A DNA stretch of 64,000 nucleotides. Source: Minisyncoccota bacterium (GTDB lineage: Bacteria > Patescibacteriota > Minisyncoccia > 2-02-FULL-40-12 > IGHO2-01-FULL-4-A). How positions within the stretch are numbered: position 1 is the stretch's first letter; the number at the start of each line of letters is the position of its first letter. The notes below the pieces were generated by a model that worked only from the letters and a program-made list of their open reading frames with translations, made no database searches and was not told the DNA's origin. Below, piece after piece: positions 50,756-60,658 of the stretch. Made by a program: the position numbers and the translations under genes. Where the stretch lies: contig DATDXQ010000028.1 in NCBI GenBank assembly GCA_036517175.1, forward strand, positions 2,113 through 66,112, read 5' to 3'.

Positions 50756-51157
50756 CTAATATTGCCGTTGTGCACCTGCTGGGTAAACCAGACAGGAATA
50801 TTGTCCAGCCTTAAAATAAATGCATTCTTCGTCAACAATTCTAGCTACTTCAGCGATCCTCTCGAGAAGAGCAGGGATTCTATTCTTGCCCTCAAAAGAA
50901 ACTTCATAAACCCTGTGACGATCTCTATAAACTACTCTCTGTTTATTTATCCAAAGGCCAAAATTAGCAACCACGGAGGAGGTAAATGCTCCAAACTCTC
51001 TGGACAAAAAATTCTGCAAATACTCCTCAACTGTCTCTCCTCCAATTATTATATTTAACTTGTTTTCCGGGATATAAAATACTGCTGGCCTACCAAGATC
51101 AACAAGTCTGTACTTAGATCTATCATTAAATTCCCGCCACCTACTTTTATTTTTCAA
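50756..51157 (-). CDS. Hypothetical protein (first gene of a three-gene operon).
   Basis: 133 aa. No recognisable motif. TTG start. Confidence 0.35.
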   Translation of the reverse strand: MKNKSRWREFNDRSKYRLVDLGRPAVFYIPENKLNIIIGGETVEEYLQNFLSREFGAFTSSVVANFGLWINKQRVVYRDRHRVYEVSFEGKNRIPALLERIAEVARIVDEECIYFKAGQYSCLVYPAGAQRQY

Positions 51158-51164
51158 GGCTCAC

Positions 51165-51410
51165 CTATCCAGAAACGGAATTTACATGAAAGTGGTCACC
51201 CTGTGAGACAACATTAAATCTCTGGCCACAGCGACAAATAAAAGCAGGTGAAGCTGATGTTCTCCGATCACCCACAAGAATAGAATGATGGAATCCAACC
51301 TCACCAGTGTTTTCATTTTTTAGACCATTCCTACCACAACCACAGGTAATATCTATGGCAACCATATTTTTGCTTATAGGCTCTATCCTAATACCCATGA
51401 TACCCTTCAT
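51165..51410 (-). CDS. Small zinc-ribbon protein.
   Basis: 81 aa. CGCG...CRCG Cys pairs. ATGA overlap with the upstream gene. Confidence 0.45.
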   Translation of the reverse strand: MKGIMGIRIEPISKNMVAIDITCGCGRNGLKNENTGEVGFHHSILVGDRRTSASPAFICRCGQRFNVVSQGDHFHVNSVSG

Positions 51411-51712
51411 CCCTGTCCTCTCAGGTTTTCTACTCTATCCTTTTCATTTACATCCACCGCCATTCTTGTTCCGCCCCCGGCAAGACCCATATCACTTCCC
51501 AAAATCTCAAGGATTATATCCTCAGCCAATCCTTGCCTTCGACAACTAGCGATCGCGCCCGCAATCATAAGTTCCTGGAATTTTAGAGCCATCGCGTCAA
51601 CAACCGGATCACCGCTCTGAGTATCTTGACGTTGTGCTCTTAAGGCGGCCAAATGTAGGATTAATGCACCCTTGGCCATGCCTGCCACAAATTCATTATC
51701 TCGTCCACTCAT
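51407..51712 (-). CDS. Hypothetical protein.
   Basis: ATG at 51710-51712 with a GGAG SD (MSGRDNEF...). The ORF-track TTG start at 51790 is probably an over-extension. Confidence 0.4.
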   Translation of the reverse strand: MSGRDNEFVAGMAKGALILHLAALRAQRQDTQSGDPVVDAMALKFQELMIAGAIASCRRQGLAEDIILEILGSDMGLAGGGTRMAVDVNEKDRVENLRGQG

Positions 51713-51854
51713 GTCATCTTCTCCAATTTTAAATAGCACTTTGATTATACTGCCCAATATAGTTTTTGTCAAATTAAGATAGCACTTCAAATATTAGTTT
51801 AGTGCATATCTTTGCAAATCAAAACCGCCAATAATGGCGGGTGGCAAGATACTC

Positions 51855-52318
51855 CTATAAATTTTTTTCTAGAAATAACCTAGCTTTCCTAAATGCTTCA
51901 CCTCGATGAGATATTTTATTCTCATCCTCTGTCGTCATTTCAGCCAAAACTAAATTGGTACCTTCAGGAACAAATAGCCCACTGTAGGGCATCCCTGGTT
52001 GAAACTTTGCTCTAGGAGCTTCCAGTAATTGTCCATAGACTTTACCTGAAAAGAAATACTCATCGCCACTTGGTGCAACAACCACAAAGACCTTTCAGCA
52101 ACGCCTTCATTGGATTCACTTTCCTTGAATAGCATGCGATACCTATTTGCCCGATCGTGTAATAAGATCCCTTCAAATTGAGTAAGGGCAAATCTTCCAA
52201 GTTTCTTCAGAATCACACAAACTTCTGGATTATTCCCGTTTACTTCAAGTTCTTTTTCAATTTCGCCAATAAATACTTGAATTGTGACTTCAACTGTAAT
52301 TTTAGACAACATATCCAT
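51855..52318 (-). pseudogene. Candidate frameshifted gene: two overlapping ORFs in different frames.
   Basis: The 122-aa ORF (52318 to 51950) and the 76-aa ORF (52085 to 51855) overlap by 135 nt. Together they would read as one roughly 150-aa protein. Confidence 0.35.
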
Positions 52319-52449
52319 TGTCTAACTACTATTTTAAAGAATAAACCAACAATACCATAGAAATATTGTATTGTAAAGTACATTGCTGAGCTGGGACTTA
52401 GTTGGAAATCGATATTATTGAATATCCAAGAGATTTACGCTTTCGCAAA

Positions 52450-52487: not shown

Positions 52488-52700
52488 TTAGGTTTTACTT
52501 TTAAAATGGTCGAACTTATACCAAAGATCATCAAAATACGCCTTACAAGATGTGCAATCAGCAAAATGCAGAAGATCTTCATATGTTAGTCCGCTAACAC
52601 ACATCTTATGAAATTGCCCCACAGTGAAGTGGGTTCCTAGAGGAATTTCTAATCCAGTTGGTTTTGGTTTCTTAAATCTCTTTAATAACCATACTAGCAT
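52488..52700 (-). CDS. Small Cys/His-containing hypothetical protein.
   Basis: 70 aa. AGGAG SD. TTGACA-N17-TATTGT promoter at 52732-52760. Confidence 0.45.
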   Translation of the reverse strand: MLVWLLKRFKKPKPTGLEIPLGTHFTVGQFHKMCVSGLTYEDLLHFADCTSCKAYFDDLWYKFDHFKSKT

Positions 52701-52731
52701 TTTAGTCTCCTGTTATTAAGGAATAGGAAAA

Positions 52732-52760
52732 ACAATACTTCTTCTTGTTAGCATTGTCAA
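52732..52760 (-). promoter_or_regulatory. Sigma70-like promoter TTGACA-N17-TATTGT.
   Basis: Exact -35 hexamer and 17-nt spacer. Lies 30 nt upstream of the AGGAG SD of the 52700 gene. Confidence 0.5.
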
Positions 52761-52793: not shown

Positions 52794-53870
52794 TTACTTT
52801 TTATTGTTCTGCAAAGGGTGGGATTTATTCTTCTCTACCCTTTCTATCATAAATTTTACAGCCTCGTTCGTATTGATAAATTGTAGCTTTATATCTGGAA
52901 GGTTGTTGTGAAATACCCTAAATATTTCATCCGCAAAAGCTTGTCCAATCATAGGAACCTTATCAAAATCAAATACGACAGATTTAAATTTATCTAAACC
53001 AGACAATACTCTACGTGCTTGGGAGCGAGAAACAAATACACCACCTATTGTATACAGCTTTATCTTAACTTCAGTTTTATCAAATCCTTGATAACCGTCC
53101 TCATTTTCTCCAGTATATTTTCTAAATATATCGTTTAGGTGCCTATCTGAATCTATCGAAATAGAAAAACTAACTTTAGTACCCTTTCTTATAGCTTTTG
53201 GTTTTTGTAAGAAAACATCATTAATTCTGTTGTTTACTATAACTAGTCTGTATCCAAAACTATCTAAATTAAACAGGTCGCCAGCCCTTGAAGTAAAGAA
53301 AATACCCTCACCAGAATGAGATTTAGGTTGTGTGGTTGTTTTTCCTTTCAATAAATCCTGAATGGCCTCGAGCTCCGATTTAAGAGTTCTTTTGACCATT
53401 ATGTTTTTATATACTCCAATTCCAGAATCTATTACATCAAAGAAAAGCTTCTTATTTTCAATTCTGACCTCGACCGTAATATTCTTTGATTTTGAATGCT
53501 CAATAGCATTGTTGAGCATCTCAGAAAAAGCATAAGTAAAAATACTCCTAACATTTTCCTTGAGGGTCAAGATAAGGGGAAACTTATTCTCTAGTTCATT
53601 CAAAACCTTGTGCTCTTCCAGCCCCTTATTCTTTAACGTTTTTTTTATTTTGTTAGGAAAAAGTTCTAAGTGGTTCGCAGCGTATTTAGGATTTAGATAT
53701 GAAGCCTTACTAGTTGAGCCGGTCTTTACTATTTTTCTCTCATTGACCAACTGTTTTAATAAAAAGCTTATATATTGCCTAGAAACGCCAAATATAGAGA
53801 CTAGATCCCTAGTTTTTAATTGTTTTTTTTGCTCTAAAATATTTAGTATTGTTTCTTTAGACAACTTCAT
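52794..53870 (-). CDS. Single-polypeptide wHTH + GHKL (HATPase_c) ATPase + STAS-like (DUF4325) protein.
   Basis: N-terminal HTH (LKTRDLVSIFGVSRQYISFLL). N-box NNAIEHS and G-box DSGIGV. C-terminal VVFDFDKVPMIGQAFADEIFRV, typical of DUF4325. Tandem TTGACA boxes with TATACT 7 nt from the ATG suggest a leaderless start. Confidence 0.6.
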   Translation of the reverse strand: MKLSKETILNILEQKKQLKTRDLVSIFGVSRQYISFLLKQLVNERKIVKTGSTSKASYLNPKYAANHLELFPNKIKKTLKNKGLEEHKVLNELENKFPLILTLKENVRSIFTYAFSEMLNNAIEHSKSKNITVEVRIENKKLFFDVIDSGIGVYKNIMVKRTLKSELEAIQDLLKGKTTTQPKSHSGEGIFFTSRAGDLFNLDSFGYRLVIVNNRINDVFLQKPKAIRKGTKVSFSISIDSDRHLNDIFRKYTGENEDGYQGFDKTEVKIKLYTIGGVFVSRSQARRVLSGLDKFKSVVFDFDKVPMIGQAFADEIFRVFHNNLPDIKLQFINTNEAVKFMIERVEKNKSHPLQNNKK

Positions 53871-54133
53871 TGACTTAAGTATATCAGTTGTAAAGCGGTT
53901 GTCAAGTAGTCTGGGGACGGTTGTCAACTTGGTTGTAAAGTTAGTGGCCGAGCTAGGTCTTCGTTGCTTCGCTCCTCCGAAGCTTTAGCAAAGGAGGGGG
54001 CATTTATTGATACCGAATATCCGGGAGATTTACTATTTTGCTACAAATTAAAAAGCGCCCTTCGATAAACTCAGAGCACTTCTTAATCTCAGTTTACACT
54101 GAGCTTGTCGAAGTGTTGCGGGGACAATCAATC

Positions 54134-54219
54134 GTTGGAACTACTTCTAAGCGATTAGTTGAGAAAGTTTTTAGGTATTACTTAAAAATAAAACCTATCG
54201 ATTAAGATAGGTGTTGGAA
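54134..54219 (-). repeat. Conserved 3'-end element copy A (GATTAGTTGA box plus terminator hairpin), flanked by GTTGGAA.
   Basis: Homologous to 54741-54840 and 58916-59030. Hairpin cctatc/gatagg. Confidence 0.55.
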
Positions 54220-54222
54220 ATA

Positions 54223-54633
54223 TCATCTACGGCCAGACCAGTTTTTACCACAGTCATCGCACCAATAGGCAGTAAAATCATATTCAGATTTTGATTTTAG
54301 GTTTGGGTGTTGGCATCTTTTTTGCAGTTCTATCAATTCATTTTCTACTACAGTAAGTTGGGCTTGAACTCCCTTTTTTCGAGACTCAATTTTTTTTCGG
54401 AGCTCAATTACATTATTCTGGGTAGCCTGAACAGATTCCTTAAATTCTTGACATCGGCAAGCGTTACAGCTTGTCCCAACTTTAATATTTTCTGACAATC
54501 CAATGTGATTATGATAATTGCGTGGGTGGCCACATTCACAGATTAATTCTGGATTGTAACGGCCAAAGACAGAGTGTGATACTTCGCTCACGCTCAACTC
54601 TTTGTTGTAAATTATCTGCCTAGAGAATATCAC
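54223..54633 (-). CDS. Zn-finger / coiled-coil small protein.
   Basis: 136 aa with no internal Met. CECGH...CNACRC and C-terminal CQHP...CDDCG. Central coiled coil. Non-ATG start; the exact start is uncertain. Confidence 0.45.
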   Translation of the reverse strand: MIFSRQIIYNKELSVSEVSHSVFGRYNPELICECGHPRNYHNHIGLSENIKVGTSCNACRCQEFKESVQATQNNVIELRKKIESRKKGVQAQLTVVENELIELQKRCQHPNLKSKSEYDFTAYWCDDCGKNWSGRR

Positions 54634-54740
54634 CCAAAAACCTTTTAATCAATATCCCTGCTGTCCCTCGATTTCCTCGGGATAAATCATTCCTTCGATA
54701 GTTCGGCAGGCACTTCGGCCGTGAGCCCAGCACCGAATGG

Positions 54741-54840
54741 CTCACTACTTGATCAGGGCAAGACTGCAAGCGATTAGTTGAAAGGGTGTTTAAATATTAC
54801 TTAGAAAATAAAAAAGAGGGATAAATCCCTCATCTTGGAA
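54741..54840 (-). repeat. Conserved 3'-end element copy B.
   Basis: GATTAGTTGA box at 54772-54781 plus hairpin gaggga/tccctc overlapping the RidA stop codon. Confidence 0.55.
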
Positions 54841-55276
54841 TAGCAGCAATTCCTCTGATTTCTACCATCGTATCTTCCAAGGGGTACTCCCACGGCACTT
54901 CTGATACCCAAACCTGACACCTGGCAGGCATGTTTCCTTTTTCTCTTGTAATACCGTATTGAGCAAAAAATTCACAGTAGGCAGAATTATAATCTTCACG
55001 GGATTTCTTTCGGTCTTTACAATCTTTCAAAAATACATCCATTGCTACAAACGAGCTGGCATCACCGCCTGCCTCCTCAACGATAGCAAGCATATTTTTC
55101 AATACTTGAGCGGTCTGTGGCCCATAACCACCTTCAACAACTGGCTCGCCATCACGGCTTTTATCATTTCCTGTTTGCCCAGCAAGAAAAAGAATTTTGT
55201 GGTTCATCGGGTCTACTAATACACCCTGACTGTATGCACCTGGAGTGGGAGTCTTATCAGTAAAAATATTCTGCAT
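54830..55276 (-). CDS. RidA/YjgF/Endoribonuclease L-PSP family protein.
   Basis: GAYSQGV..., GPQTAQVLKNM, VDVFL and the C-terminal PARCQVWVSEV...VEIRGIAA pattern. AAGGAG SD at the ATG at 55276. Confidence 0.65.
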   Translation of the reverse strand: MQNIFTDKTPTPGAYSQGVLVDPMNHKILFLAGQTGNDKSRDGEPVVEGGYGPQTAQVLKNMLAIVEEAGGDASSFVAMDVFLKDCKDRKKSREDYNSAYCEFFAQYGITREKGNMPARCQVWVSEVPWEYPLEDTMVEIRGIAAIPR

Positions 55277-55324
55277 TGTCTTTCTCCTTGTCAAAAATCA
55301 AAGTGATATTATCCTATCATATAT

Positions 55325-55591
55325 TTACAATAAGTCTAGCCCGGCTGATTTATCAGAACAAAAAAGCCGAGGGTTAGTCGGCATTTTGGGTAGTGCCCAA
55401 TTTGTAGGTGGATGGCGCAAGGGCTTCTTTATTCCACAATCCCAACAGTGACCACAATCGCTTATTAAATAATCGTGGTCGCAGGCCCACTTACCTACAT
55501 CGTCAGCACTAATTCTTTTTTTGAGGCCACTCAAACGAATTCTTAACACAAGATATTTAGCATTAGGGGCACGTTCGTATTCTGCTTTCAT
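55325..55591 (-). CDS. Small Cys-rich protein.
   Basis: CDHDYLISDCGHCWDCG cluster. The ATG at 55589-55591 lies 1 nt after the stop of the upstream gene. A hairpin/terminator is embedded in its last 15 codons. Confidence 0.4.
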   Translation of the reverse strand: MKAEYERAPNAKYLVLRIRLSGLKKRISADDVGKWACDHDYLISDCGHCWDCGIKKPLRHPPTNWALPKMPTNPRLFCSDKSAGLDLL

Positions 55592-55592
55592 T

Positions 55593-55811
55593 TTATTTCC
55601 AACCCAATACTTTCCAACCGTGTTCAGCATATAGGCCAAGGCCGTCTTTTCCTTCACAGCATTCAAGGAATGCATTTTCTGTATCAGACCAATAGAAATC
55701 GCCTGTAGAAACTTTTACACCAGGTCCTTCAAAGCGAAGCTTTACTGGTCTCGCCGTTCTCTTGGATGGTTCTGTGGTTTTCCAATTTCTATTTCTTGCT
55801 TTGGTAGCCAT
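55593..55811 (-). CDS. Small basic hypothetical protein (P1).
   Basis: 72 aa. GGAGGAAGAGA SD. Promoter/operator module upstream. Confidence 0.5.
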   Translation of the reverse strand: MATKARNRNWKTTEPSKRTARPVKLRFEGPGVKVSTGDFYWSDTENAFLECCEGKDGLGLYAEHGWKVLGWK

Positions 55812-55846
55812 TCTCTTCCTCCGATAATTTCAATGAACCTGGAAAC

Positions 55847-55875
55847 AAAATACACCTTATTGGTGTATTTTGCAA
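55847..55875 (-). promoter_or_regulatory. Promoter TTGCAA-N17-TATTTT with an embedded operator palindrome AAAATACACC-N5-GGTGTATTTT.
   Basis: Perfect 10-bp inverted repeat spanning the spacer. A near-identical copy sits at 57824-57852. Confidence 0.55.
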
Positions 55876-56072
55876 AATGCCAACCAGGTCTGGGACCCGG
55901 GAAAATTGTACTCGCCGCCTACTGGTGCTGGGCATACCACGACTTCTGTCTCTGGCATTTCGGAGCTCTCGCTCCTCAACTGTCACTCGCCAAAAGGTAT
56001 GTACCACACCTGCTGGCTTTGGTGTTTGGGCAAATCAAAAAGCGGCTAATGCCGCTTTAAACAACTGTTCAA

Positions 56073-56357
56073 TTAGTAAATAGCGAGGGTTTGTCCATTT
56101 ATTACTATCGCCACATCCCTATCCAACGAAGTACATTCAGAATCTACAACAAAATCATCGTTTTTCGTCCGTATCAAAAGAACCAGATGTGCTGGAAATC
56201 CCTCCTTCACTACAAGATCAAAACTAATATCCCCGCTAGAAACATCGCGTAGTTTTTTTCTTGTTTCAAAAACCGCTTCTGAATTTTCTATTGTACGCCC
56301 AGTCTCCTCCAGTGCTATAATCCGATCTTCTTGAGCAGATAACTGCCTTATTTTCAT
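56073..56357 (-). CDS. Hypothetical protein.
   Basis: 95 aa. ATG at 56355-56357 with an AGGAG SD. TTGACA-N17-TATTAT promoter at 56386-56414. The ORF-track start at 56435 is an over-extension. Confidence 0.45.
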   Translation of the reverse strand: MKIRQLSAQEDRIIALEETGRTIENSEAVFETRKKLRDVSSGDISFDLVVKEGFPAHLVLLIRTKNDDFVVDSECTSLDRDVAIVINGQTLAIY

Positions 56358-56623
56358 AACGACTCCTATTTTAAAAGACAATACAATAATACAACCTACA
56401 TGTGGTATTGTCAATCTACACTTTGGCCTGCACATCCACTCTATTGAGCTCTGTATTTCTTCGTTCTCACTCAGTCACTGGCCTCAGTACAAAATTACCT
56501 TCATTCGCTTGTTGCAGAGCTTCGACAGAATTGCCTGCCTGCCGTAGCTTTAGCAAAGTAGGGTGAGGAGTTGGTAAAAATAAAACCGAGGAGAGCTCGG
56601 TATTGGTAAAACGTAATTATTTA

Positions 56624-57358
56624 TTAGTATTCTGCGACTGTTAAATTCATGGATAAATCTAAAAAGGAATCTACGCAGAGAAATGGCCCACCGGGGGTTT
56701 CAAATGTTCTTTTATTTTGTAAGACTGGTTCGACACACACATAATCTTTAGGTGCATCGGTCCACAAGACAAGTTGGGATTTGACTGGCGCAAACGCTCC
56801 TCCAAGCTCCATCATTATATTTTTGCTTGGCATAGCGATAAGAATGGCCTCACTACTTATTCCTACTGATCTCGATTCACAAGAAAAACCATTGTAGGCA
56901 GCTCCACCATTCAAAACTCTTACAGTGCTCTCGTCTTTACATCCAAAATACGGATGAAATGCTGGAAGCACTGGGGCTGGTATAACTTCTTTGTCATCCA
57001 TCCGATCTATACGTAATGTCATCTTCAATCCATTAGTATATGCGTAGACTCCAATCTCGTATCCTAAAGACCATGGATAGCTTTCATTCCCAGGATGATG
57101 AAAAATTAGTTTGGCATTATTAGATTCGAGTTTTACATCTCGGGCCTCCAAATCTCGTAGATAACCATGCTTCTTCTTGCTTCTTGGGGATTGACCAAAC
57201 CATGGAGCACATATATGACAGCCACCACGTGCCTTATCTCCAATTTGGCGCCAAGGATACAATATCTCTAGCTTATCTACTACGGCAGAGGTAATAGTCC
57301 CGCCAGTAGAAGAGAGGTGAATTTCCGTTTGGCCATTTCTAATAACAATATCTTCCAT
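56624..57358 (-). CDS. D-hexose-6-phosphate mutarotase / aldose 1-epimerase family (YeaD-like).
   Basis: GGCHICAPWFG and HGYLR motifs. ATG at 57356-57358 with a GGAGG SD. TTGACA-N17-TATTTT promoter at 57400-57428. Confidence 0.6.
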   Translation of the reverse strand: MEDIVIRNGQTEIHLSSTGGTITSAVVDKLEILYPWRQIGDKARGGCHICAPWFGQSPRSKKKHGYLRDLEARDVKLESNNAKLIFHHPGNESYPWSLGYEIGVYAYTNGLKMTLRIDRMDDKEVIPAPVLPAFHPYFGCKDESTVRVLNGGAAYNGFSCESRSVGISSEAILIAMPSKNIMMELGGAFAPVKSQLVLWTDAPKDYVCVEPVLQNKRTFETPGGPFLCVDSFLDLSMNLTVAEY

Positions 57359-57565
57359 CGTGTCCTCCAGACCTAGCAAATTGTTAAATAGATAATAAAA
57401 AAATAGCACTTCATTGCTATTTTGTCAATATATTCTTGCCCTTCGTGATTACACTCAGGGCTGCGTCGGCCTTCGCCTCCTTGTTGCAGAAGTGTTGCGT
57501 GATTGGCAACAAATACTGCTTGATTTGAAAGAAGTCTACACTTTTGCAAATTAAAAAGTGCGATA

Positions 57566-57793
57566 TTATCGCACTTCAAATCTTCGGCCAAACCAATAAC
57601 AGCCGGGTTCTTCTTGAAGTTCCATTCGGCCACCCTCGTTATGCCATTGGGCAGGATTGTCTGCAAAAAGAGTTCTGCACTTATCGGAAGGTATAAATTC
57701 TTTTACAGTATATTTTCTTCCTTTTGTCAGCGCTGGTCCAATACCTTCCATTTTTTCATCAACACATTCGACCGTCTGGCCTTCTTGAAACAT
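57566..57793 (-). CDS. Small hypothetical protein (P2).
   Basis: 75 aa. AAGGAG SD. The operator-containing promoter at 57824-57852 is paralogous to the P1 promoter. Confidence 0.5.
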   Translation of the reverse strand: MFQEGQTVECVDEKMEGIGPALTKGRKYTVKEFIPSDKCRTLFADNPAQWHNEGGRMELQEEPGCYWFGRRFEVR

Positions 57794-57823
57794 ACACTTC
57801 TCCTTGTTAATTTAGCTGAAAAC

Positions 57824-57852
57824 AAAATACACCAATAAGGTGTATTTTGCAA
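57824..57852 (-). promoter_or_regulatory. Promoter TTGCAA-N17-TATTTT with operator palindrome AAAATACACC-N5-GGTGTATTTT (copy 2).
   Basis: Same palindrome arms as 55847-55871. The loop is AATAA rather than TTATT. Confidence 0.55.
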
Positions 57853-57949
57853 CTTATGCCAATCTTGTCTCATTTGTTGCGGAACTCTTACGCAGTTGAC
57901 ACCTTTTGATACCGAATATACAAAAGATTTGCAATTTTGCTCTGGTATA

Positions 57950-58146
57950 AAAAGTGAACCCCCGGGTCGTGGCCACGACATCGGGGGTTAATGTGCACGG
58001 ATTGTTTACCGTGCTGCCTGTTTTCGACCTTGCGGTCGGGCGACCTCCAATAGGGTTTGGGGAGCCTAGGCTCCTTATCCGCCTGTGGCGGACCTACCTT
58101 CGAACCCTCCTCTCGAGAAGCTACCTCAAGAGAAACTCAATGTTGT
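57950..58146 (-). ncRNA. Standalone roughly 200-nt GC-rich structured RNA with its own promoter and terminator. Class not identified.
   Basis: TTGACT-N17-TATACT promoter at 58153-58181. GC-rich terminator hairpin at 57957-57989 plus T5. No ORF. Much more GC-rich than the surrounding sequence. Confidence 0.55.
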
Positions 58147-58346
58147 GAATTAAGTATAGCATATCCTAAGTATAAAGTCAATAGCAACCAAAAACAGCCC
58201 TTGAAAGCTGTTTTTGCAAAGTGCCAAATGGGTCTGGGACCTGGAAATTTGTTGCAGAATTAGGACTTCGTTGGTATTTAATATTACCGGGTATCAAAGA
58301 AATTTATCAGTTTAATCTTGTAAATTAAAAGTCCGCAAAGCGGACA

Positions 58347-58529
58347 TTAGATAGATTTGGGAATTTTACCTTTACCATTGCAGGTCGGGCAGGTTGTAGT
58401 TCTGGTTTCTGGCATTGGAAAACCAAATAATCCTATATATGCAGCGTTCATGATTGTTTCTGTCTTTGAGCCAGACCCGCTGCAATTCCAGCAGATCTGC
58501 TCTTTATTTTGATCTTTGTTGGTTGCCAC
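58347..58529 (-). CDS. Small zinc-ribbon protein.
   Basis: 61 aa. CWNC...CPTC. ATG with a GGGGGTGA SD. TTGACA-N17-TATTGT promoter at 58568-58596. Confidence 0.5.
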   Translation of the reverse strand: MATNKDQNKEQICWNCSGSGSKTETIMNAAYIGLFGFPMPETRTTTCPTCNGKGKIPKSI

Positions 58530-58698
58530 CATACTATCACCCCCTATCTGTGTTAAGGAACAATAAAACAATACGCCATTTCTGGCGTATTGTCAATATT
58601 TGCACTTCGGCCTGTTGGCCTCAGTACAAAATTACCTTCGTAATTTATTTTTGTACCCTTCGGCTGTTGCCTACGGGCACTGCGTCGCCTTCGCTCCT

Positions 58699-58718
58699 TG
58701 TTGCGGGGGCAGGATTTG
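58699..58718 (-). repeat. 20-nt direct repeat of the tRNA-fMet 3' end (att-like).
   Basis: TGTTGCGGGGGCAGGATTTG is identical to 60584-60603 inside or adjacent to the tRNA gene. Confidence 0.6.
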
Positions 58719-58915
58719 GTTTCGCCTCTCGTTGGCTTCCGCCTCCTCGGGCTAACCACCACCTCGCGTGACTTTATGCCAATTGCATAAAGTCACATGC
58801 TCCGGCGTTCAAATACTGACGAAAGTGACACGGGTCACTTCCTCTCCCCGCAAACATATACGATAAATATAAACGGCTCACATGGTGAGCCGTTTATATT
58901 TTGGGGCAATCAAAT

Positions 58916-59030
58916 GTTGGAACCCTTCGACTACGCTCAGGACAGGCTTGTAAAAGATTAGTTGAGAATATATTTAGATATTATTTGGAGAATAAAAACG
59001 GCATTTAGCCGTATATATTTGTTGGTGAAG
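58916..59030 (-). repeat. Conserved 3'-end element copy C.
   Basis: GATTAGTTGA box at 58956-58965. Hairpin cggc/gccg at the stop codon of the 59005 gene. GTTGGAA / GTTGGTGAA flanks. Confidence 0.5.
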
Positions 59031-59472
59031 TCTCAAGCAGTAGGTCGCAATCTCTGCATACTAATCCGAATCCGCAACCTTGCCCGATTTCTTCAACCCT
59101 CTTTTCGTTTGAATGAGAACAACTTTTCTGTTTCCTTGTGAGTCCAGTCTTACCTTTGGCCTTTTTTCCTTCGACTACTTTGATAGAAAAACTGTGCTTA
59201 TACCGTTTCCCGCTACGATGAGCAGATTCTGTGAAAATTATCTTTGTACCCAGCGGGATTTTATCTAAAAAATTACTCGACTTTTCTATCTTCTCTGGTA
59301 TCAGGCAACTTTTGCCTTTCCTTGTTTCGACCTTACCGTGAGTAGACCATTTCTCATTAACAACGCCATTAACTACGAATTGTGTTGGAGTACGATTCGG
59401 TTCTGTTTTCTCCAGAACTCCTGTAGCAGTATATGTATACCATCCATCTATAGCATCTTTTCGTTTAGCCAT
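59005..59472 (-). CDS. Hypothetical protein with a C-terminal zinc ribbon.
   Basis: 155 aa. C-terminal CSHS...GCGFGLVCRDC. AAAGGAGAA SD. 1-nt TAATG overlap with the upstream gene. Confidence 0.45.
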   Translation of the reverse strand: MAKRKDAIDGWYTYTATGVLEKTEPNRTPTQFVVNGVVNEKWSTHGKVETRKGKSCLIPEKIEKSSNFLDKIPLGTKIIFTESAHRSGKRYKHSFSIKVVEGKKAKGKTGLTRKQKSCSHSNEKRVEEIGQGCGFGLVCRDCDLLLETSPTNIYG

Positions 59473-59774
59473 TACTTAAGTTCTCCTTTCGGCACATCTT
59501 CCGTCAACACAACAGTTGTCACTAATCCTAAGCCACTATTGAATTTCCAGTTTTGACCATCCCAATCCATACCATGGTCGAAAGTATCAGTAAATAATCT
59601 TCCTTTCTTAACTCCGATAGCATCACTGCCATCTTCGTAAGATACCAGGCCATAGCCAGTGTTTTTGTAGGCGAACTTATCGCCTGGCTTTAGATTCTTT
59701 AGCCGTTTTAGACGGTCTTCAGGAGTTAATGCGATTGAAACCGCTTTATTCTGCTTAGTCTTTTTTGCCATCAT
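59472..59774 (-). CDS. Hypothetical protein.
   Basis: 100 aa. Translationally coupled to the 59005 gene. Confidence 0.45.
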   Translation of the reverse strand: MMAKKTKQNKAVSIALTPEDRLKRLKNLKPGDKFAYKNTGYGLVSYEDGSDAIGVKKGRLFTDTFDHGMDWDGQNWKFNSGLGLVTTVVLTEDVPKGELK

Positions 59775-59943: not shown

Positions 59944-60402
59944 ATGGATTTTGAATATTTTAACTCAAGGAAAGAAAAAGTCCGAGAAACTTACAATAAA
60001 CAAAAGGCTATTTTCTGTCCCTTTCTTCAGGCTCAGGTTGTTTTAAACTCAGATGGATTTCATCACTTACAATTCTCCGATAGAAGAGAGCGAGGCAAAG
60101 AAGAGCAACTATTAAAATTTAATCTATTACCTCTGGCGCTCGATATTATTAAAAAATCAGGAACGCTTCAGGAATACAGAAAGGAACCGGTTAGAATCGG
60201 GCGCACATCAAAAGACGGTTTTTCTACAACTAAAATCGCTGAATATTTTGGATTCGTAGCCATAGTCGGAGAAAAGAAAATTAAGATAAGGGTTATTGTG
60301 AGACGAATCGGCGATGGGAATTTTAGCTTTTGGAGTGTAATGCCAGACAGTAAGCTGAAAGGCGGTCAAAGATTATATGATTACGGAATCGAAGATAATT
60401 AA
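59944..60402 (+). CDS. Hypothetical protein.
   Basis: 152 aa. TTTACA-N17-TAATCT promoter-like sequence close to the ATG. Terminator hairpin at 60404-60440. Confidence 0.4.
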   Translation: MDFEYFNSRKEKVRETYNKQKAIFCPFLQAQVVLNSDGFHHLQFSDRRERGKEEQLLKFNLLPLALDIIKKSGTLQEYRKEPVRIGRTSKDGFSTTKIAEYFGFVAIVGEKKIKIRVIVRRIGDGNFSFWSVMPDSKLKGGQRLYDYGIEDN

Positions 60403-60585
60403 AACTAAAAAACGCCCCATGAGGCGTTTTTTAGTGTGCCTGTCTTCAGCTTTGGAAATCCTTAGCTGAACGGGGCTTGCGCCCACAAGCACGATGTAAA
60501 TGTAGCATACTTTAGTTAAAAAAAGCAAGTCCTGTTGATAATTCTATGAAAAACAGGAGATTTCTCTCCTGTTTCTCCTGCTCTG

Positions 60586-60658
60586 TTGCGGGGGCAGGAT
60601 TTGAACCTGCGATCTTTGGGTTATGAGCCCAACGAGATGACCACTTCTCCACCCCGCG
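60586..60658 (-). tRNA. Initiator tRNA-fMet (anticodon CAT).
   Basis: Cloverleaf folded by hand. C1:A72 mismatch. D-stem GAGA/TCTC with A11:U24. Three G-C pairs at the base of the anticodon stem (GGG/CCC). T-loop GGTTCAAATCC. Terminator hairpin at 60548-60580. Confidence 0.8.

What the first reader, a model, noticed from the sequence alone, without database searches (positions are those of the whole stretch)
54223..59472. Accessory region enriched in small Zn-ribbon or Cys-rich proteins of unknown function
Six small proteins with CxxC or CxC clusters lie within 9 kb (51165, 52488, 54223, 55325, 58347 and 59005). Alongside them are RidA, a hexose-6-P mutarotase, the HTH-GHKL-STAS protein and the RNA gene. 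All are driven by the shared promoter and operator modules, and all are bounded by tRNA-fMet. The region could be a novel regulatory, stress or defence module. It is the best candidate in the window for an undescribed system, but no function can be assigned from the sequence.
Basis: inference. Interest (0 to 1): 0.5.

Follow-up and report, generated by a model that had tools for sequence, protein, structure and literature searches.

The report
Shuffled small-gene array beside tRNA-fMet
Next to the initiator tRNA gene of an uncultured Paceibacterota bacterium lies a 9-kb patchwork of tiny, separately switched genes; several encode real zinc-binding proteins, but these are unrelated cargo reshuffled between relatives, not parts of one machine.

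Summary
The six ORFs exist and are real genes. C122, C155, C88 and h100 are under purifying selection against relatives, with Cys/His columns conserved. The "one undescribed system" reading fails. Homologues of C122, C155 and C88 sit in unrelated neighbourhoods in relatives. Operon partners swap (h100-C155 here, h100-C88-like elsewhere). C122 and C155 are each fusions of modules found separately elsewhere. No defence model matches. The Cys enrichment disappears once protein size is controlled.

What is there is about 15 mini transcription units (51.8-60.6 kb) downstream of tRNA-fMet, each with its own promoter and terminator. They are joined by portable intergenic modules:
- a sigma-70 promoter with a palindromic spacer (6 copies, only here);
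- a CYGCAACA motif equal to the tRNA-fMet 3' end (7 of 9 window matches);
- CGAAGG repeats;
- a terminator plus micro-ORF module.

Relatives carry the same modules, up to 30/30 identical, around entirely different genes. I read this as a hypervariable, recombination-shuffled small-gene array with no integrase in the window.

One by-product is unusual. Element X (58699-58854) is a structured, covarying element that copies the acceptor/T-stem of the neighbouring tRNA. An independent copy lies beside tRNA-Arg in a relative, carrying that tRNA's 3' end.

The parts
60585..60658 (-). Initiator tRNA-fMet (CAT), without an intron; upstream boundary of the array
   Evidence: ARAGORN; Rfam 67.5 bits; C1-A72 mismatch and GGG/CCC anticodon stem read from the alignment
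59944..60402 (+). h152, hypothetical protein; the only + strand gene of the array
   Evidence: no Pfam, NCBIfam or PADLOC hit
59472..59771 (-). h100 (99-100 aa), first gene of the operon with C155; in relative L107 it is instead followed by a C88-like gene
   Evidence: dN/dS 0.24 against L107
59005..59472 (-). C155: N-terminal beta-barrel domain with OB-like strand order, plus a C-terminal ~45-aa CxH..C..CxxC zinc module that relatives carry fused to M23 peptidase
58901..59008 (+). D2 module: terminator-adjacent micro-ORF (..CKRLVENIFRYYLENK); other copies at 54113-54205 and 54756-54814
   Evidence: substitution pattern is mostly synonymous (read); no Pfam hit
58699..58854 (-). Element X: structured element whose 3' 20 nt repeat the tRNA-fMet T-loop-to-3'-end exactly and whose 5' arm pairs with them
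   Evidence: (z -9.85)
58568..58596 (-). Palindromic-spacer promoter module (TTGACAATACGCC..GGCGTATTGT) of C61; 30/30 identical in relative L099
58347..58532 (-). C61: 61-aa protein with two CXXCXGXG motifs (DnaJ / anti-TRAP-like zinc finger)
   Evidence: (both below cut-offs)
57948..58181 (-). Promoter (TTGACT-17-TATACT) plus ~200-nt structured non-coding stretch ending in a terminator; candidate sRNA or decayed cassette
   Evidence: z -4.65; no Rfam hit
57566..57852 (-). Palindromic promoter (57824-57852) plus h75 (57566-57793)
   Evidence: (I1)
56624..57428 (-). Palindromic promoter (57400-57428) plus 244-aa Aldose_epim-domain protein (56624-57358)
   Evidence: no NCBIfam hit
56073..56414 (-). 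Palindromic promoter (56386-56414) plus h94 (56073-56357)
55325..55875 (-). Palindromic promoter (55847-55875) plus operon h72 (55593-55811) and C88 (55325-55591; CDH..CGHCWDCG)
54830..55276 (-). Divergent Rid-family protein; its upstream leader module precedes an M23-zinc gene in relative L096
54223..54591 (-). C122: fusion of an N-terminal zinc knuckle (CxCGH..MGLSENLIV..CxxCxC), a long helix, and a C-terminal CxH..CxDCG ribbon
   Evidence: dN/dS 0.14
52794..53905 (-). HTH-HATPase-DUF4325 (STAS-like) protein of 358 aa (52794-53870), with a promoter that ends 8 nt before the ATG
52488..52760 (-). Promoter plus C70 (one CxxC and a distal Cys/His)
51855..52377 (-). Palindromic promoter (52349-52377) plus h122 (51950-52318), which overlaps a truncated RdgB/Ham1 C-terminal remnant (51855-52085)
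50756..51772 (-). Consensus promoter (51744-51772) plus operon h101 (51407-51712), C81 (51165-51410; CGC..CRC) and h133 (50756-51157)

Best explanation
The flagged stretch is not one system. It is the tRNA-fMet-proximal part of a ~9-kb hypervariable mosaic (about 51.8-60.6 kb) in a Paceibacterota chromosome.

Shown:
- The mosaic consists of about 15 mono- or bicistronic mini transcription units. Each has its own sigma-70-type promoter and intrinsic terminator.
- The cargo is lineage-restricted small proteins, several of them zinc-binding. Mixed in are a few divergent enzymes (Rid family, aldose-epimerase-like), an HTH-HATPase-DUF4325 protein and a truncated rdgB remnant.
- The units are joined by short portable intergenic modules. 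Relatives share these modules, but there they flank different genes.
- Partner genes and protein domains are swapped between genomes.

Inferred:
- Recombination at these conserved modules keeps exchanging small-gene cassettes downstream of tRNA genes. It may be homologous, or site-specific at the tRNA-3'-end-like CYGCAACA/X sequences.
- The cluster of Cys-rich proteins therefore reflects the kind of cargo such arrays collect, not a joint function. The cargo is small, zinc-stabilised proteins, some with phage relatives.
- Each Cys protein most likely acts alone as a zinc-ribbon or knuckle binder of nucleic acid or protein.
- The palindromic module most likely serves as both a read-through insulator (hairpin plus T-run) and a promoter.
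For: Anatomy:
- Terminator-like sites number 28 against 10.2 +/- 3.3 expected.
- High-scoring promoter matches lie in front of most gene starts in the region.
- Six palindromic promoter copies occur only at 52.3-58.6 kb.
- Seven of nine CYGCAACA matches are on the - strand between 54.1 and 60.6 kb. Ten of 28 CGAAGG matches are on the - strand between 54.06 and 59.17 kb, nine of them in spacers.

Portability of the modules:
- L096, L099, L104 and L105 carry the same modules (30/30 and 26/26 identities) in front of unrelated genes: M23-zinc, 77 aa, 159 aa, DUF3307-coaD, a 148-aa membrane protein and others.
- None of their proteins matches a window protein except the shared C155 zinc module.
- In L099 a tRNA-fMet is likewise followed by X and an array of six small genes.

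Shuffling:
- h100-C155 here against h100-C88-like in L107. h100 has dS 0.17, while C88 is saturated at synonymous sites.
- C155's C-terminal module sits on M23 peptidases.
- The N and C modules of C122 occur separately in other proteins.
- C122 homologues lie next to tRNA-fMet in one relative and after rplT in another.
- A truncated Ham1 remnant lies under h122.

Real genes: dN/dS 0.03-0.24.

Phage link: PHROG hits, and a 109-kb viral contig encoding the N module among other small Cys proteins.

Precedent: partial tRNA copies scattered through tRNA-seeded islands.
Against: - There is no recombinase in the 64-kb window and no compositional anomaly.
- Within the species the array is fixed: strains are more than 99.7% identical with the same gene order. 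No gain or loss was caught in the act.
- Only X is a detectable tRNA-derived element. The other CYGCAACA sites are 8-mers that a covariance model does not recognise as X, so they could simply be part of the promoter.
- Comparison rests on a handful of metagenomic contigs of unknown relatedness.
- Homologue searches were possible for only two of the six Cys proteins. C88 relatives came by chance from L107. C81, C70 and C61 remain untested.
Confidence: 0.55

Rival explanations
1. A co-regulated regulon. A common regulator, for example the HTH-HATPase-DUF4325 protein, binds the palindromic operators and switches the small Cys proteins and enzymes together as a stress or defence module.
For: - Six promoters share an inverted repeat between -35 and -10, and in this window they are confined to this region.
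- An HTH-containing ATPase is encoded in the array.
- One module is 30/30 identical in a distant relative, as a protein-binding site might be.
Against: - The inner stem sequences differ between copies while pairing is kept. This points to a hairpin rather than a sequence-specific operator.
- Only two of the six Cys proteins are behind such a promoter.
- The modules drive unrelated genes in relatives where no window-protein homologue, including the HTH-HATPase-DUF4325 protein, was detected on the contigs compared.
- There are no PADLOC matches.
- Gene content is not conserved.
Confidence: 0.1
2. A decayed classical integrated element (prophage or ICE remnant) that entered at tRNA-fMet through a tyrosine integrase. 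The 20-nt repeat at 58699-58718 is its attR, and the small genes are leftover early or moron genes.
For: - An exact 20-nt copy of the tRNA T-loop-to-3'-end lies 1.87 kb downstream of the tRNA.
- Genes are moron-like, each with its own promoter and terminator.
- The C122 N module has phage relatives.
- The tycheposon islands are a precedent.
Against: - The repeat is the 3' arm of element X, which also carries the inverted copy. X recurs directly after tRNA-Arg and tRNA-Met in a relative, each time with that tRNA's own sequence. That is not what an attR scar looks like.
- There is no integrase, no structural or replication gene, and no strong PHROG hit.
- The promoter hairpin and the X core are absent from IMG/VR.
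- GC content is unremarkable.
Confidence: 0.15
3. Several of the gene pairs (h100-C155, h72-C88, h101-C81) are toxin-antitoxin-like two-gene modules, which are known for swapping partners.
For: - The genes are small, overlapping or abutting, and arranged in pairs.
- The same upstream gene pairs with different downstream partners in different genomes.
- The families are sparse and mobile.
Against: - No toxin or antitoxin domain appears in Pfam, NCBIfam, PADLOC or PHROGs.
- The C155 N domain occurs alone after efp without a partner.
- C122, C61 and C70 are monocistronic.
Confidence: 0.08
4. Nothing special. This is an ordinary gene-dense patch of small hypothetical proteins, typical of CPR genomes. 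The repeats are just the lineage's usual promoters and terminators, and the Cys content follows from small size.
For: - The Cys enrichment vanishes when only small proteins are compared (p 0.28).
- The array is stable within the species.
- There are no mobility genes.
Against: - The modules are absent from the other 50 kb of the window.
- Intergenic modules are better conserved across genomes than the genes they flank.
- Domains and partners are swapped.
- A truncated housekeeping gene lies in the array.
Confidence: 0.12

Closest known systems
tRNA-seeded genomic islands with scattered partial-tRNA repeats (for example the Prochlorococcus islands built by tycheposons; bioRxiv 10.1101/2020.12.28.424599)
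   Same: - Lies directly downstream of a tRNA gene.
- Carries a copy of the tRNA 3' end inside the region.
- Gene content differs completely between relatives.
- Cargo is small genes of unknown function.
   Different: - There is no integrase or other mobility gene in 64 kb.
- The units are tiny (0.3-1.2 kb, one or two genes), each with its own promoter and terminator.
- The tRNA-derived copy is part of a structured element (X) that also holds the inverted copy.
- No compositional deviation.
Integron cassette arrays and CALINs
   Same: - Mostly one-directional series of small, mostly unknown genes.
- The genes are separated by conserved hairpin-forming sites.
- Cargo differs between genomes while the sites persist.
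   Different: - No IntI.
- The cassettes carry their own promoters.
- The repeated sites are a promoter palindrome plus CYGCAACA, not attC with a GTTRRRY core.
- No recombination has been demonstrated.
Phage morons and the conserved boundary sequences of mosaic phage genomes
   Same: - Single genes are bracketed by their own promoter and terminator.
- Exchange happens at gene boundaries.
- Small zinc-binding proteins are abundant. The viral contig L110 shows a comparable run.
   Different: - No phage structural, replication or lysis genes.
- The modules are absent from IMG/VR.
- Divergent metabolic enzymes are interspersed.
Promoter- or terminator-carrying intergenic repeats (Correia/CREE elements, REP/BIME)
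   Same: Short palindromic intergenic repeats found in several copies, plausibly supplying promoter and terminator activity. X has inverted terminal arms.
   Different: - Copy number is low and local.
- X's arms are copied from the neighbouring tRNA instead of being element-specific.
- No target-site duplication is seen.
DnaJ CXXCXGXG zinc finger and anti-TRAP mini-proteins (for C61)
   Same: Two CXXCXGXG motifs in a ~60-aa protein. It gives weak hits to PF00684, PF15777 and NF058604.
   Different: - All scores are below the curated cut-offs.
- There is no J domain.

Membership tests
Known anti-phage defence systems (PADLOC-DB 2.0) | At least one protein matching a defence-system model | tested here: not met
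   Ten proteins were scanned. The only hits were E 0.001-0.004, confined to the HTH region of the DUF4325 protein.
Integron / CALIN | IntI-type tyrosine recombinase next to the array | tested here: not met
   tblastn with a Xer/phage-integrase-family protein finds nothing in the window (best E 0.23).
Integron / CALIN | Promoterless cassettes separated by attC sites (R''/L''-L'/R' with a GTTRRRY core) | tested here: not met
   Units carry their own -35/-10 promoters. The repeated sites read TTGACAATAC..GTATTGT and CYGCAACA. No formal attC model was run.
Integrase-built tRNA genomic island | Adjacent to a tRNA gene, with a direct repeat of the tRNA 3' part at the far end | tested here: inconclusive
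   An exact 20-nt repeat is present. It belongs to element X, which also holds the inverted copy and recurs right next to other tRNAs.
Integrase-built tRNA genomic island | Integrase or other mobility genes, or their remnants | tested here: not met
   None in the window. No such Pfam domains appear in the region.
Integrase-built tRNA genomic island | Gene content variable between related genomes | tested here: met
   No shared genes near the RNR gene of relatives. The array after tRNA-fMet in L099 has wholly different proteins.
DnaJ-type CXXCXGXG zinc finger (PF00684), for C61 | Two or more CXXCXGXG repeats and a score above the Pfam gathering threshold | tested here: inconclusive
   CWNCSGSG and CPTCNGKG are present. 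The Pfam score is 24.6, below 32.7.
Rid/YjgF family (PF01042), for 54830-55276 | Score above the Pfam gathering threshold | tested here: met
   62.2 bits against 27.3. It scores 58.4 against the 106.25 cut-off of NCBIfam TIGR00004, so it is divergent.
Aldose 1-epimerase superfamily (PF01263), for 56624-57358 | Score above the Pfam gathering threshold; specific assignment as glucose-6-P 1-epimerase | tested here: inconclusive
   The domain is met (36.4 against 27). There is no NCBIfam match, so substrate specificity is not shown.
Type II toxin-antitoxin pair | A recognisable toxin or antitoxin domain in a two-gene operon | tested here: not met
   No domain was found in h100, C155, h72, C88, h101 or C81.
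OB-fold ssDNA/RNA-binding proteins, for the C155 N domain | Five-stranded barrel with a helix between strands 3 and 4, and a significant structural match | tested here: inconclusive
IS200/IS605 TnpA remnant, for the D2 micro-ORF | Match to the Y1_Tnp profile | tested here: not met
   No Pfam hit at E up to 10.
Any Rfam RNA family, for X and the 57948-58146 element | A covariance-model match | tested here: not met
   No hit at E up to 5 in the window, or at E up to 1 in L099 and L105.

The most novel reading that the evidence does not exclude
Element X, the CYGCAACA cores and the palindromic promoter hairpins together mark a previously undescribed cassette-exchange platform of CPR bacteria. X is a tRNA-minihelix mimic: the acceptor and T stems of the neighbouring tRNA enclose a conserved ~100-nt core. 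In this reading it is a mobile or recombinogenic element, or a functional tRNA-mimic RNA, that seeds arrays of self-expressed small-gene cassettes downstream of tRNA genes. It would work like an integron but without a recognisable integrase.
Probability: 0.15. Interest if true: 0.75.

Novelty: new variant of a known kind. Interest (0 to 1): 0.45.

Why it matters
CPR/Patescibacteria genomes are tiny and full of small proteins of unknown function, and how they gain and exchange genes is poorly understood.

This locus shows that a dense cluster of zinc-ribbon mini-proteins need not be a system. It can be the cargo of a recombination-prone array held together by portable promoter and terminator modules.

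If the tRNA-mimicking element X proves to be the recombination or mobility site, it would give a concrete, testable mechanism for gene flux in these reduced genomes. It would also add a new class of tRNA-derived structured element.

The defined protein modules give handles for biochemical work:
- the CxCGH..MGLSENLIV..CxxCxC knuckle;
- the helix plus CxHPN..WCxDCG ribbon;
- the C155 ribbon shared with M23 peptidases.

Tried and rejected
1. Concatenating eleven small proteins into one query for the last word-index search returned nothing, not even self-hits. That search was wasted, so C81, C70 and C61 have no homologue survey.
2. Synteny through the RNR gene failed. The nearest species representatives (Yanofskybacteria and others) are only about 67% identical. 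They have none of the region's genes within 10 kb and no tRNA-fMet there.
4. Common origin of the C-terminal ribbons is unproven. hhalign gives 34% probability for C122-C against C155-C and 7% against C88.
5. The D2 micro-ORF is not a recognisable IS200 TnpA remnant: no Pfam hit.
6. D2 is not a decayed tRNA-fMet 3' half: it is no more similar than shuffles once the terminal motif is removed.
7. The other spacers are not decayed X copies: cmsearch with filters off finds only the one X copy.
8. The 58.7-kb element is not an intron-bearing tRNA pseudogene. ARAGORN with introns allowed finds nothing, and it does not align with the group I intron of relatives.
9. There is no tyrosine recombinase in the window.
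10. The promoter hairpin and the X core are absent from IMG/VR.
11. Within-species pN/pS is not possible: strains differ at only 4-21 positions, counting the individual positions of one indel.
12. The sraL-like hit at 60403-60511 is below threshold and mostly driven by a terminator hairpin.

Full report
**Source and gene models.** Exact-sequence look-ups place the window in a Candidatus Paceibacterota (CPR) MAG contig of 80,992 bp, locus tags VJH71_03370-03445. All the small ORFs are annotated there as hypothetical. Contigs from other samples are 99.8-99.99% identical with the same gene order.

Gene calls on those contigs and the sequence itself correct several models:
- The 54223 gene probably starts at 54591 (122 aa).
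- The 55325 gene starts at 55591 (88 aa). It follows an overlooked 72-aa gene with a strong Shine-Dalgarno sequence.
- The 58347 gene starts at 58532 (61 aa).
- The epimerase-like gene is 244 aa, the Rid protein 148 aa and the DUF4325 protein 358 aa.

**The observation.** The six Cys-containing ORFs are there. Four of them (C81, C122, C88, C61) have two or more CxC/CxxC pairs. C70 and C155 have one pair plus further Cys/His. No ORF I picked in the first 50 kb has two such motifs. By my own gene tallies, Fisher p is 0.025-0.002. Restricted to proteins under 160 aa the contrast is not significant (p 0.28). The signal is therefore 'many small proteins here', and small proteins often use zinc.

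Domain-level annotations of the neighbours hold:
- Rid family: 62 bits in Pfam, but below the NCBIfam cut-off.
- Aldose_epim: 36 bits, with no NCBIfam match.
- HTH plus HATPase plus DUF4325.

A 76-aa ORF at 51855-52085 is the C-terminal third of RdgB/Ham1 (E 1e-12). It is overlapped by h122, so it is a truncated housekeeping gene. Rfam finds only the tRNA.

**Are the small proteins real?** Yes, where this could be tested.
- C122 has four homologue clusters at 63-80% identity, with every Cys/His of the N-terminal cluster invariant. dN/dS is 0.14.
- The C155 N domain has dN/dS 0.11. Its C-terminal zinc module has 0.03 against the M23 fusion.
- The first 55 residues of C88 keep pN 0.15 with synonymous sites saturated. 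h100 has dN/dS 0.24.

**Are they one system?** No.
- The C122 homologue in a Yanofskybacteria MAG lies about 110 nt downstream of tRNA-fMet, near hypothetical genes, an M23 peptidase and a Xer-type recombinase. In another relative it follows rplT. No other protein of the region is within 10 kb.
- The C155 N domain occurs alone after efp. Its C-terminal module is fused to M23 peptidases at 91% identity.
- In L107 the h100 homologue (86% aa identity, 90% nt) is followed by a C88-like gene instead of C155.
- A profile search of 1.84 billion representatives shows that C122 is a fusion of two modules that occur separately. One is a zinc knuckle, CxCGHxxxxH-MGLSENLIV-CxxCxC, attached to varied tails. 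The other is a ~70-aa stand-alone 'helix plus CxHPN..EYDF..WCxDCG' protein.
- The knuckle also occurs in a 109-kb IMG/VR contig among other small Cys proteins, and it hits PHROGs weakly.
- PADLOC gives nothing meaningful.

Structure prediction adds little:
- C122: one confident long helix only.
- C61: two CXXCXGXG motifs, DnaJ/anti-TRAP-like, below thresholds.

**Architecture.** Nearly every gene or gene pair has its own promoter and terminator. Terminator-like sites number 28 against 10.2 +/- 3.3 expected. Five kinds of intergenic module recur.
1. A promoter whose 17-nt spacer is a palindrome (TTGACAATACGCC..GGCGTATTGT, TTGCAAAATACACC..GGTGTATTTTG and variants). There are six copies, all on the - strand between 52.3 and 58.6 kb, with the -10 hexamer ending about 30-42 nt before a start codon. 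The stems differ between copies but stay paired and are followed by T-runs. I infer a combined insulator/terminator and promoter.
2. CYGCAACA, identical to the 3' end of tRNA-fMet. Seven of the nine window matches lie on the - strand between 54.1 and 60.6 kb.
3. CGAAGG repeats in the spacers. Ten of 28 matches are on the - strand between 54.06 and 59.17 kb, nine of them intergenic.
4. A terminator-adjacent module (D2) that reads on the + strand as a 26-35-aa micro-ORF, M(L)RGQ..KRLVEKVFRYYLENK. Its copies differ mostly at synonymous positions, and it is also present in L096 and L089.
5. Smaller shared pieces (repeat families D3, D10, D14).

**The same modules in relatives, around different genes.**
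- A 3.2-kb contig (L096) has, in each of its four intergenic regions, a terminator, a T-rich tail (TTTTTATTT-like), a spacer, C(C/T)GCAACA and then a promoter of this kind. The flanked genes are M23-zinc, a 77-aa gene, a 159-aa gene, DUF3307-coaD and one more.
- A metagenome scan for the promoter hairpin found eight loci.
- In L099 a tRNA-fMet is followed by X and an array of six small genes (78-148 aa). Five CYGCAACA copies lie within about 2 kb there, three of them directly abutting the next promoter. None of the L099 proteins resembles a window protein, although one promoter module is 30/30 identical.
- In L105, tRNA-fMet-X-promoter leads straight into DUF3307-coaD. In L096 a different gene sits upstream of DUF3307.
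- The leader upstream of the window's Rid gene precedes the M23-zinc gene in L096.

The intergenic glue is thus better conserved than the cargo, and both genes and domains are exchanged at it. This is the basis for my best explanation: a recombination-shuffled array of small-gene cassettes next to tRNA genes.

Points against, or still open:
- There is no recombinase in the window.
- There is no GC anomaly.
- The array is stable within the species.
- Apart from X, the CYGCAACA copies are not recognisable tRNA or X remnants. They may simply be a promoter-upstream motif.

**Element X.** The segment 58699-58854 (-) folds far better than shuffles (z -9.85 for 58597-58900). It ends with an exact 20-nt copy of the tRNA-fMet T-loop-to-3'-end. 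Homologous elements follow tRNA-fMet in L099 and L105.

A covariance model built from these three finds an independent copy right after tRNA-Arg in L099 (49 bits, E 3e-11). It also finds a partial copy after an elongator tRNA-Met. In the Arg copy the 3' arm is the last 20 nt of tRNA-Arg (CGATTCCTCTCGAGGGCACA), and the 5' arm is its complement.

X is thus a mimic of the acceptor-plus-T-stem minihelix of the neighbouring tRNA. The T-loop is replaced by a conserved ~100-nt core (..GCCGGAGCGATG-hairpin-CGCGAGGCGGGGTCGCGG..GACCGAWT..).

On four sequences, 84% of cells pair, against 33-45% in slid controls. Twenty-three of 44 pairs show compensatory change, against 4-6 in the controls, and 0 of 500 shuffles reach the observed values. 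The alignment is model-fitted and small, so this is suggestive rather than proof.

X is not in Rfam and was not found in IMG/VR. Because it carries the inverted copy as well, it is not a plain att scar. In the window, h152 and h100-C155 lie between the tRNA and X, whereas in L099 and L105 X follows the tRNA directly. I could not decide whether X is an RNA, a recombination site or a MITE-like repeat.

**Comparison with known things.** The closest analogues are:
- tRNA-seeded genomic islands with scattered partial tRNAs (tycheposon paper);
- integron cassette arrays;
- phage morons;
- promoter-carrying intergenic repeats such as Correia elements.

Defining features of the first two (an integrase; attC sites and promoterless cassettes) were tested and not met. 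I therefore describe the locus as working like a cassette array without filing it as a member of either family.

Group I introns in the tRNA-fMet of relatives belong to a phenomenon already described for Patescibacteria (PMC13011429).

**Verdict.** The 'undescribed system' interpretation is not supported. The region is a variable, mosaic array whose Cys-rich proteins are independent, selected, modular zinc-binding cargo. Interest is moderate, and it comes mainly from the portable intergenic modules and the tRNA-mimicking element X.

Noticed in passing
window 58699-58854 (-); L099 8154-8305 (+), 2337-2477 (-), 11534-11609 (+); L105 1978-2132 (-): Element X is a covarying structured element placed after tRNA genes. 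Its two arms reproduce the acceptor and T stems of the adjacent tRNA (fMet, Arg, Met) around a conserved ~100-nt core. It is not in Rfam.
   Followed up: partly
window 57948-58181 (-): A good promoter (TTGACT-17-TATACT with a TG extension) is followed by a ~200-nt GC-rich structured stretch (z -4.65) and a terminator. It has no ORF and no Rfam match. At the corresponding place in L099 the homologous promoter drives a 78-aa gene.
   Followed up: partly
L089 9619-9843; L099 7812-8057: The tRNA-fMet genes of two relatives carry a group I intron in the anticodon loop (Rfam 81 and 51 bits), and ARAGORN misses these tRNAs. The window's tRNA-fMet has no intron. Such introns are already described for Patescibacteria (PMC13011429).
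   Followed up: yes
window 51855-52085 (-): The C-terminal third of an RdgB/Ham1 NTP pyrophosphatase (E 1e-12) survives without its N-terminal part. It is overlapped by the 3' end of h122, so it is a truncated housekeeping gene inside the array.
   Followed up: partly
window 54113-54205, 54756-54814, 58901-59008 (+); L096 701-790; L089 8403-8483: A conserved + strand micro-ORF (26-35 aa, ..KRLVEKVFRYYLENK) sits against bidirectional terminators, with mostly synonymous differences between copies. In several copies its start codon overlaps the reverse complement of CCCCGCAACA. It has no Pfam match.
   Followed up: partly
window 55325-55591 (-), hairpin 55366-55382: The last ~20 codons of C88 run through its own terminator hairpin, and the tail differs completely from the L107 homologue. 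This suggests the 3' end was replaced by recombination. The gene is not annotated in the NCBI record.
   Followed up: partly
window 53870-53905 (-): The promoter of the HTH-HATPase-DUF4325 gene (TTGACA-16-TATACT) ends 8 nt before the ATG, which implies a leaderless or nearly leaderless mRNA.
   Followed up: no
window 54059-59173 (-): The hexamer CGAAGG is concentrated in the spacers upstream of promoters: 10 of 28 window matches fall here, against about 1 expected. It often occurs as 2-4 copies between CYGCAACA and the -35, and could be a regulator binding site.
   Followed up: no
L107 1468-3213: A relative's contig carries a large serine recombinase gene (Resolvase, Recombinase and Zn_ribbon_recom domains). 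ARAGORN calls a tRNA-Thr with a 204-nt intron overlapping its 3' end, and a GIY-YIG gene follows. These lie about 7 kb from the h100/C88-like pair.
   Followed up: no
window 55846-55872 and 57823-57849: Two palindromic promoter modules are exact 27-nt reverse complements of each other. The stems are identical and the loop is inverted, as if the hairpin had been inserted or flipped in both orientations.
   Followed up: no
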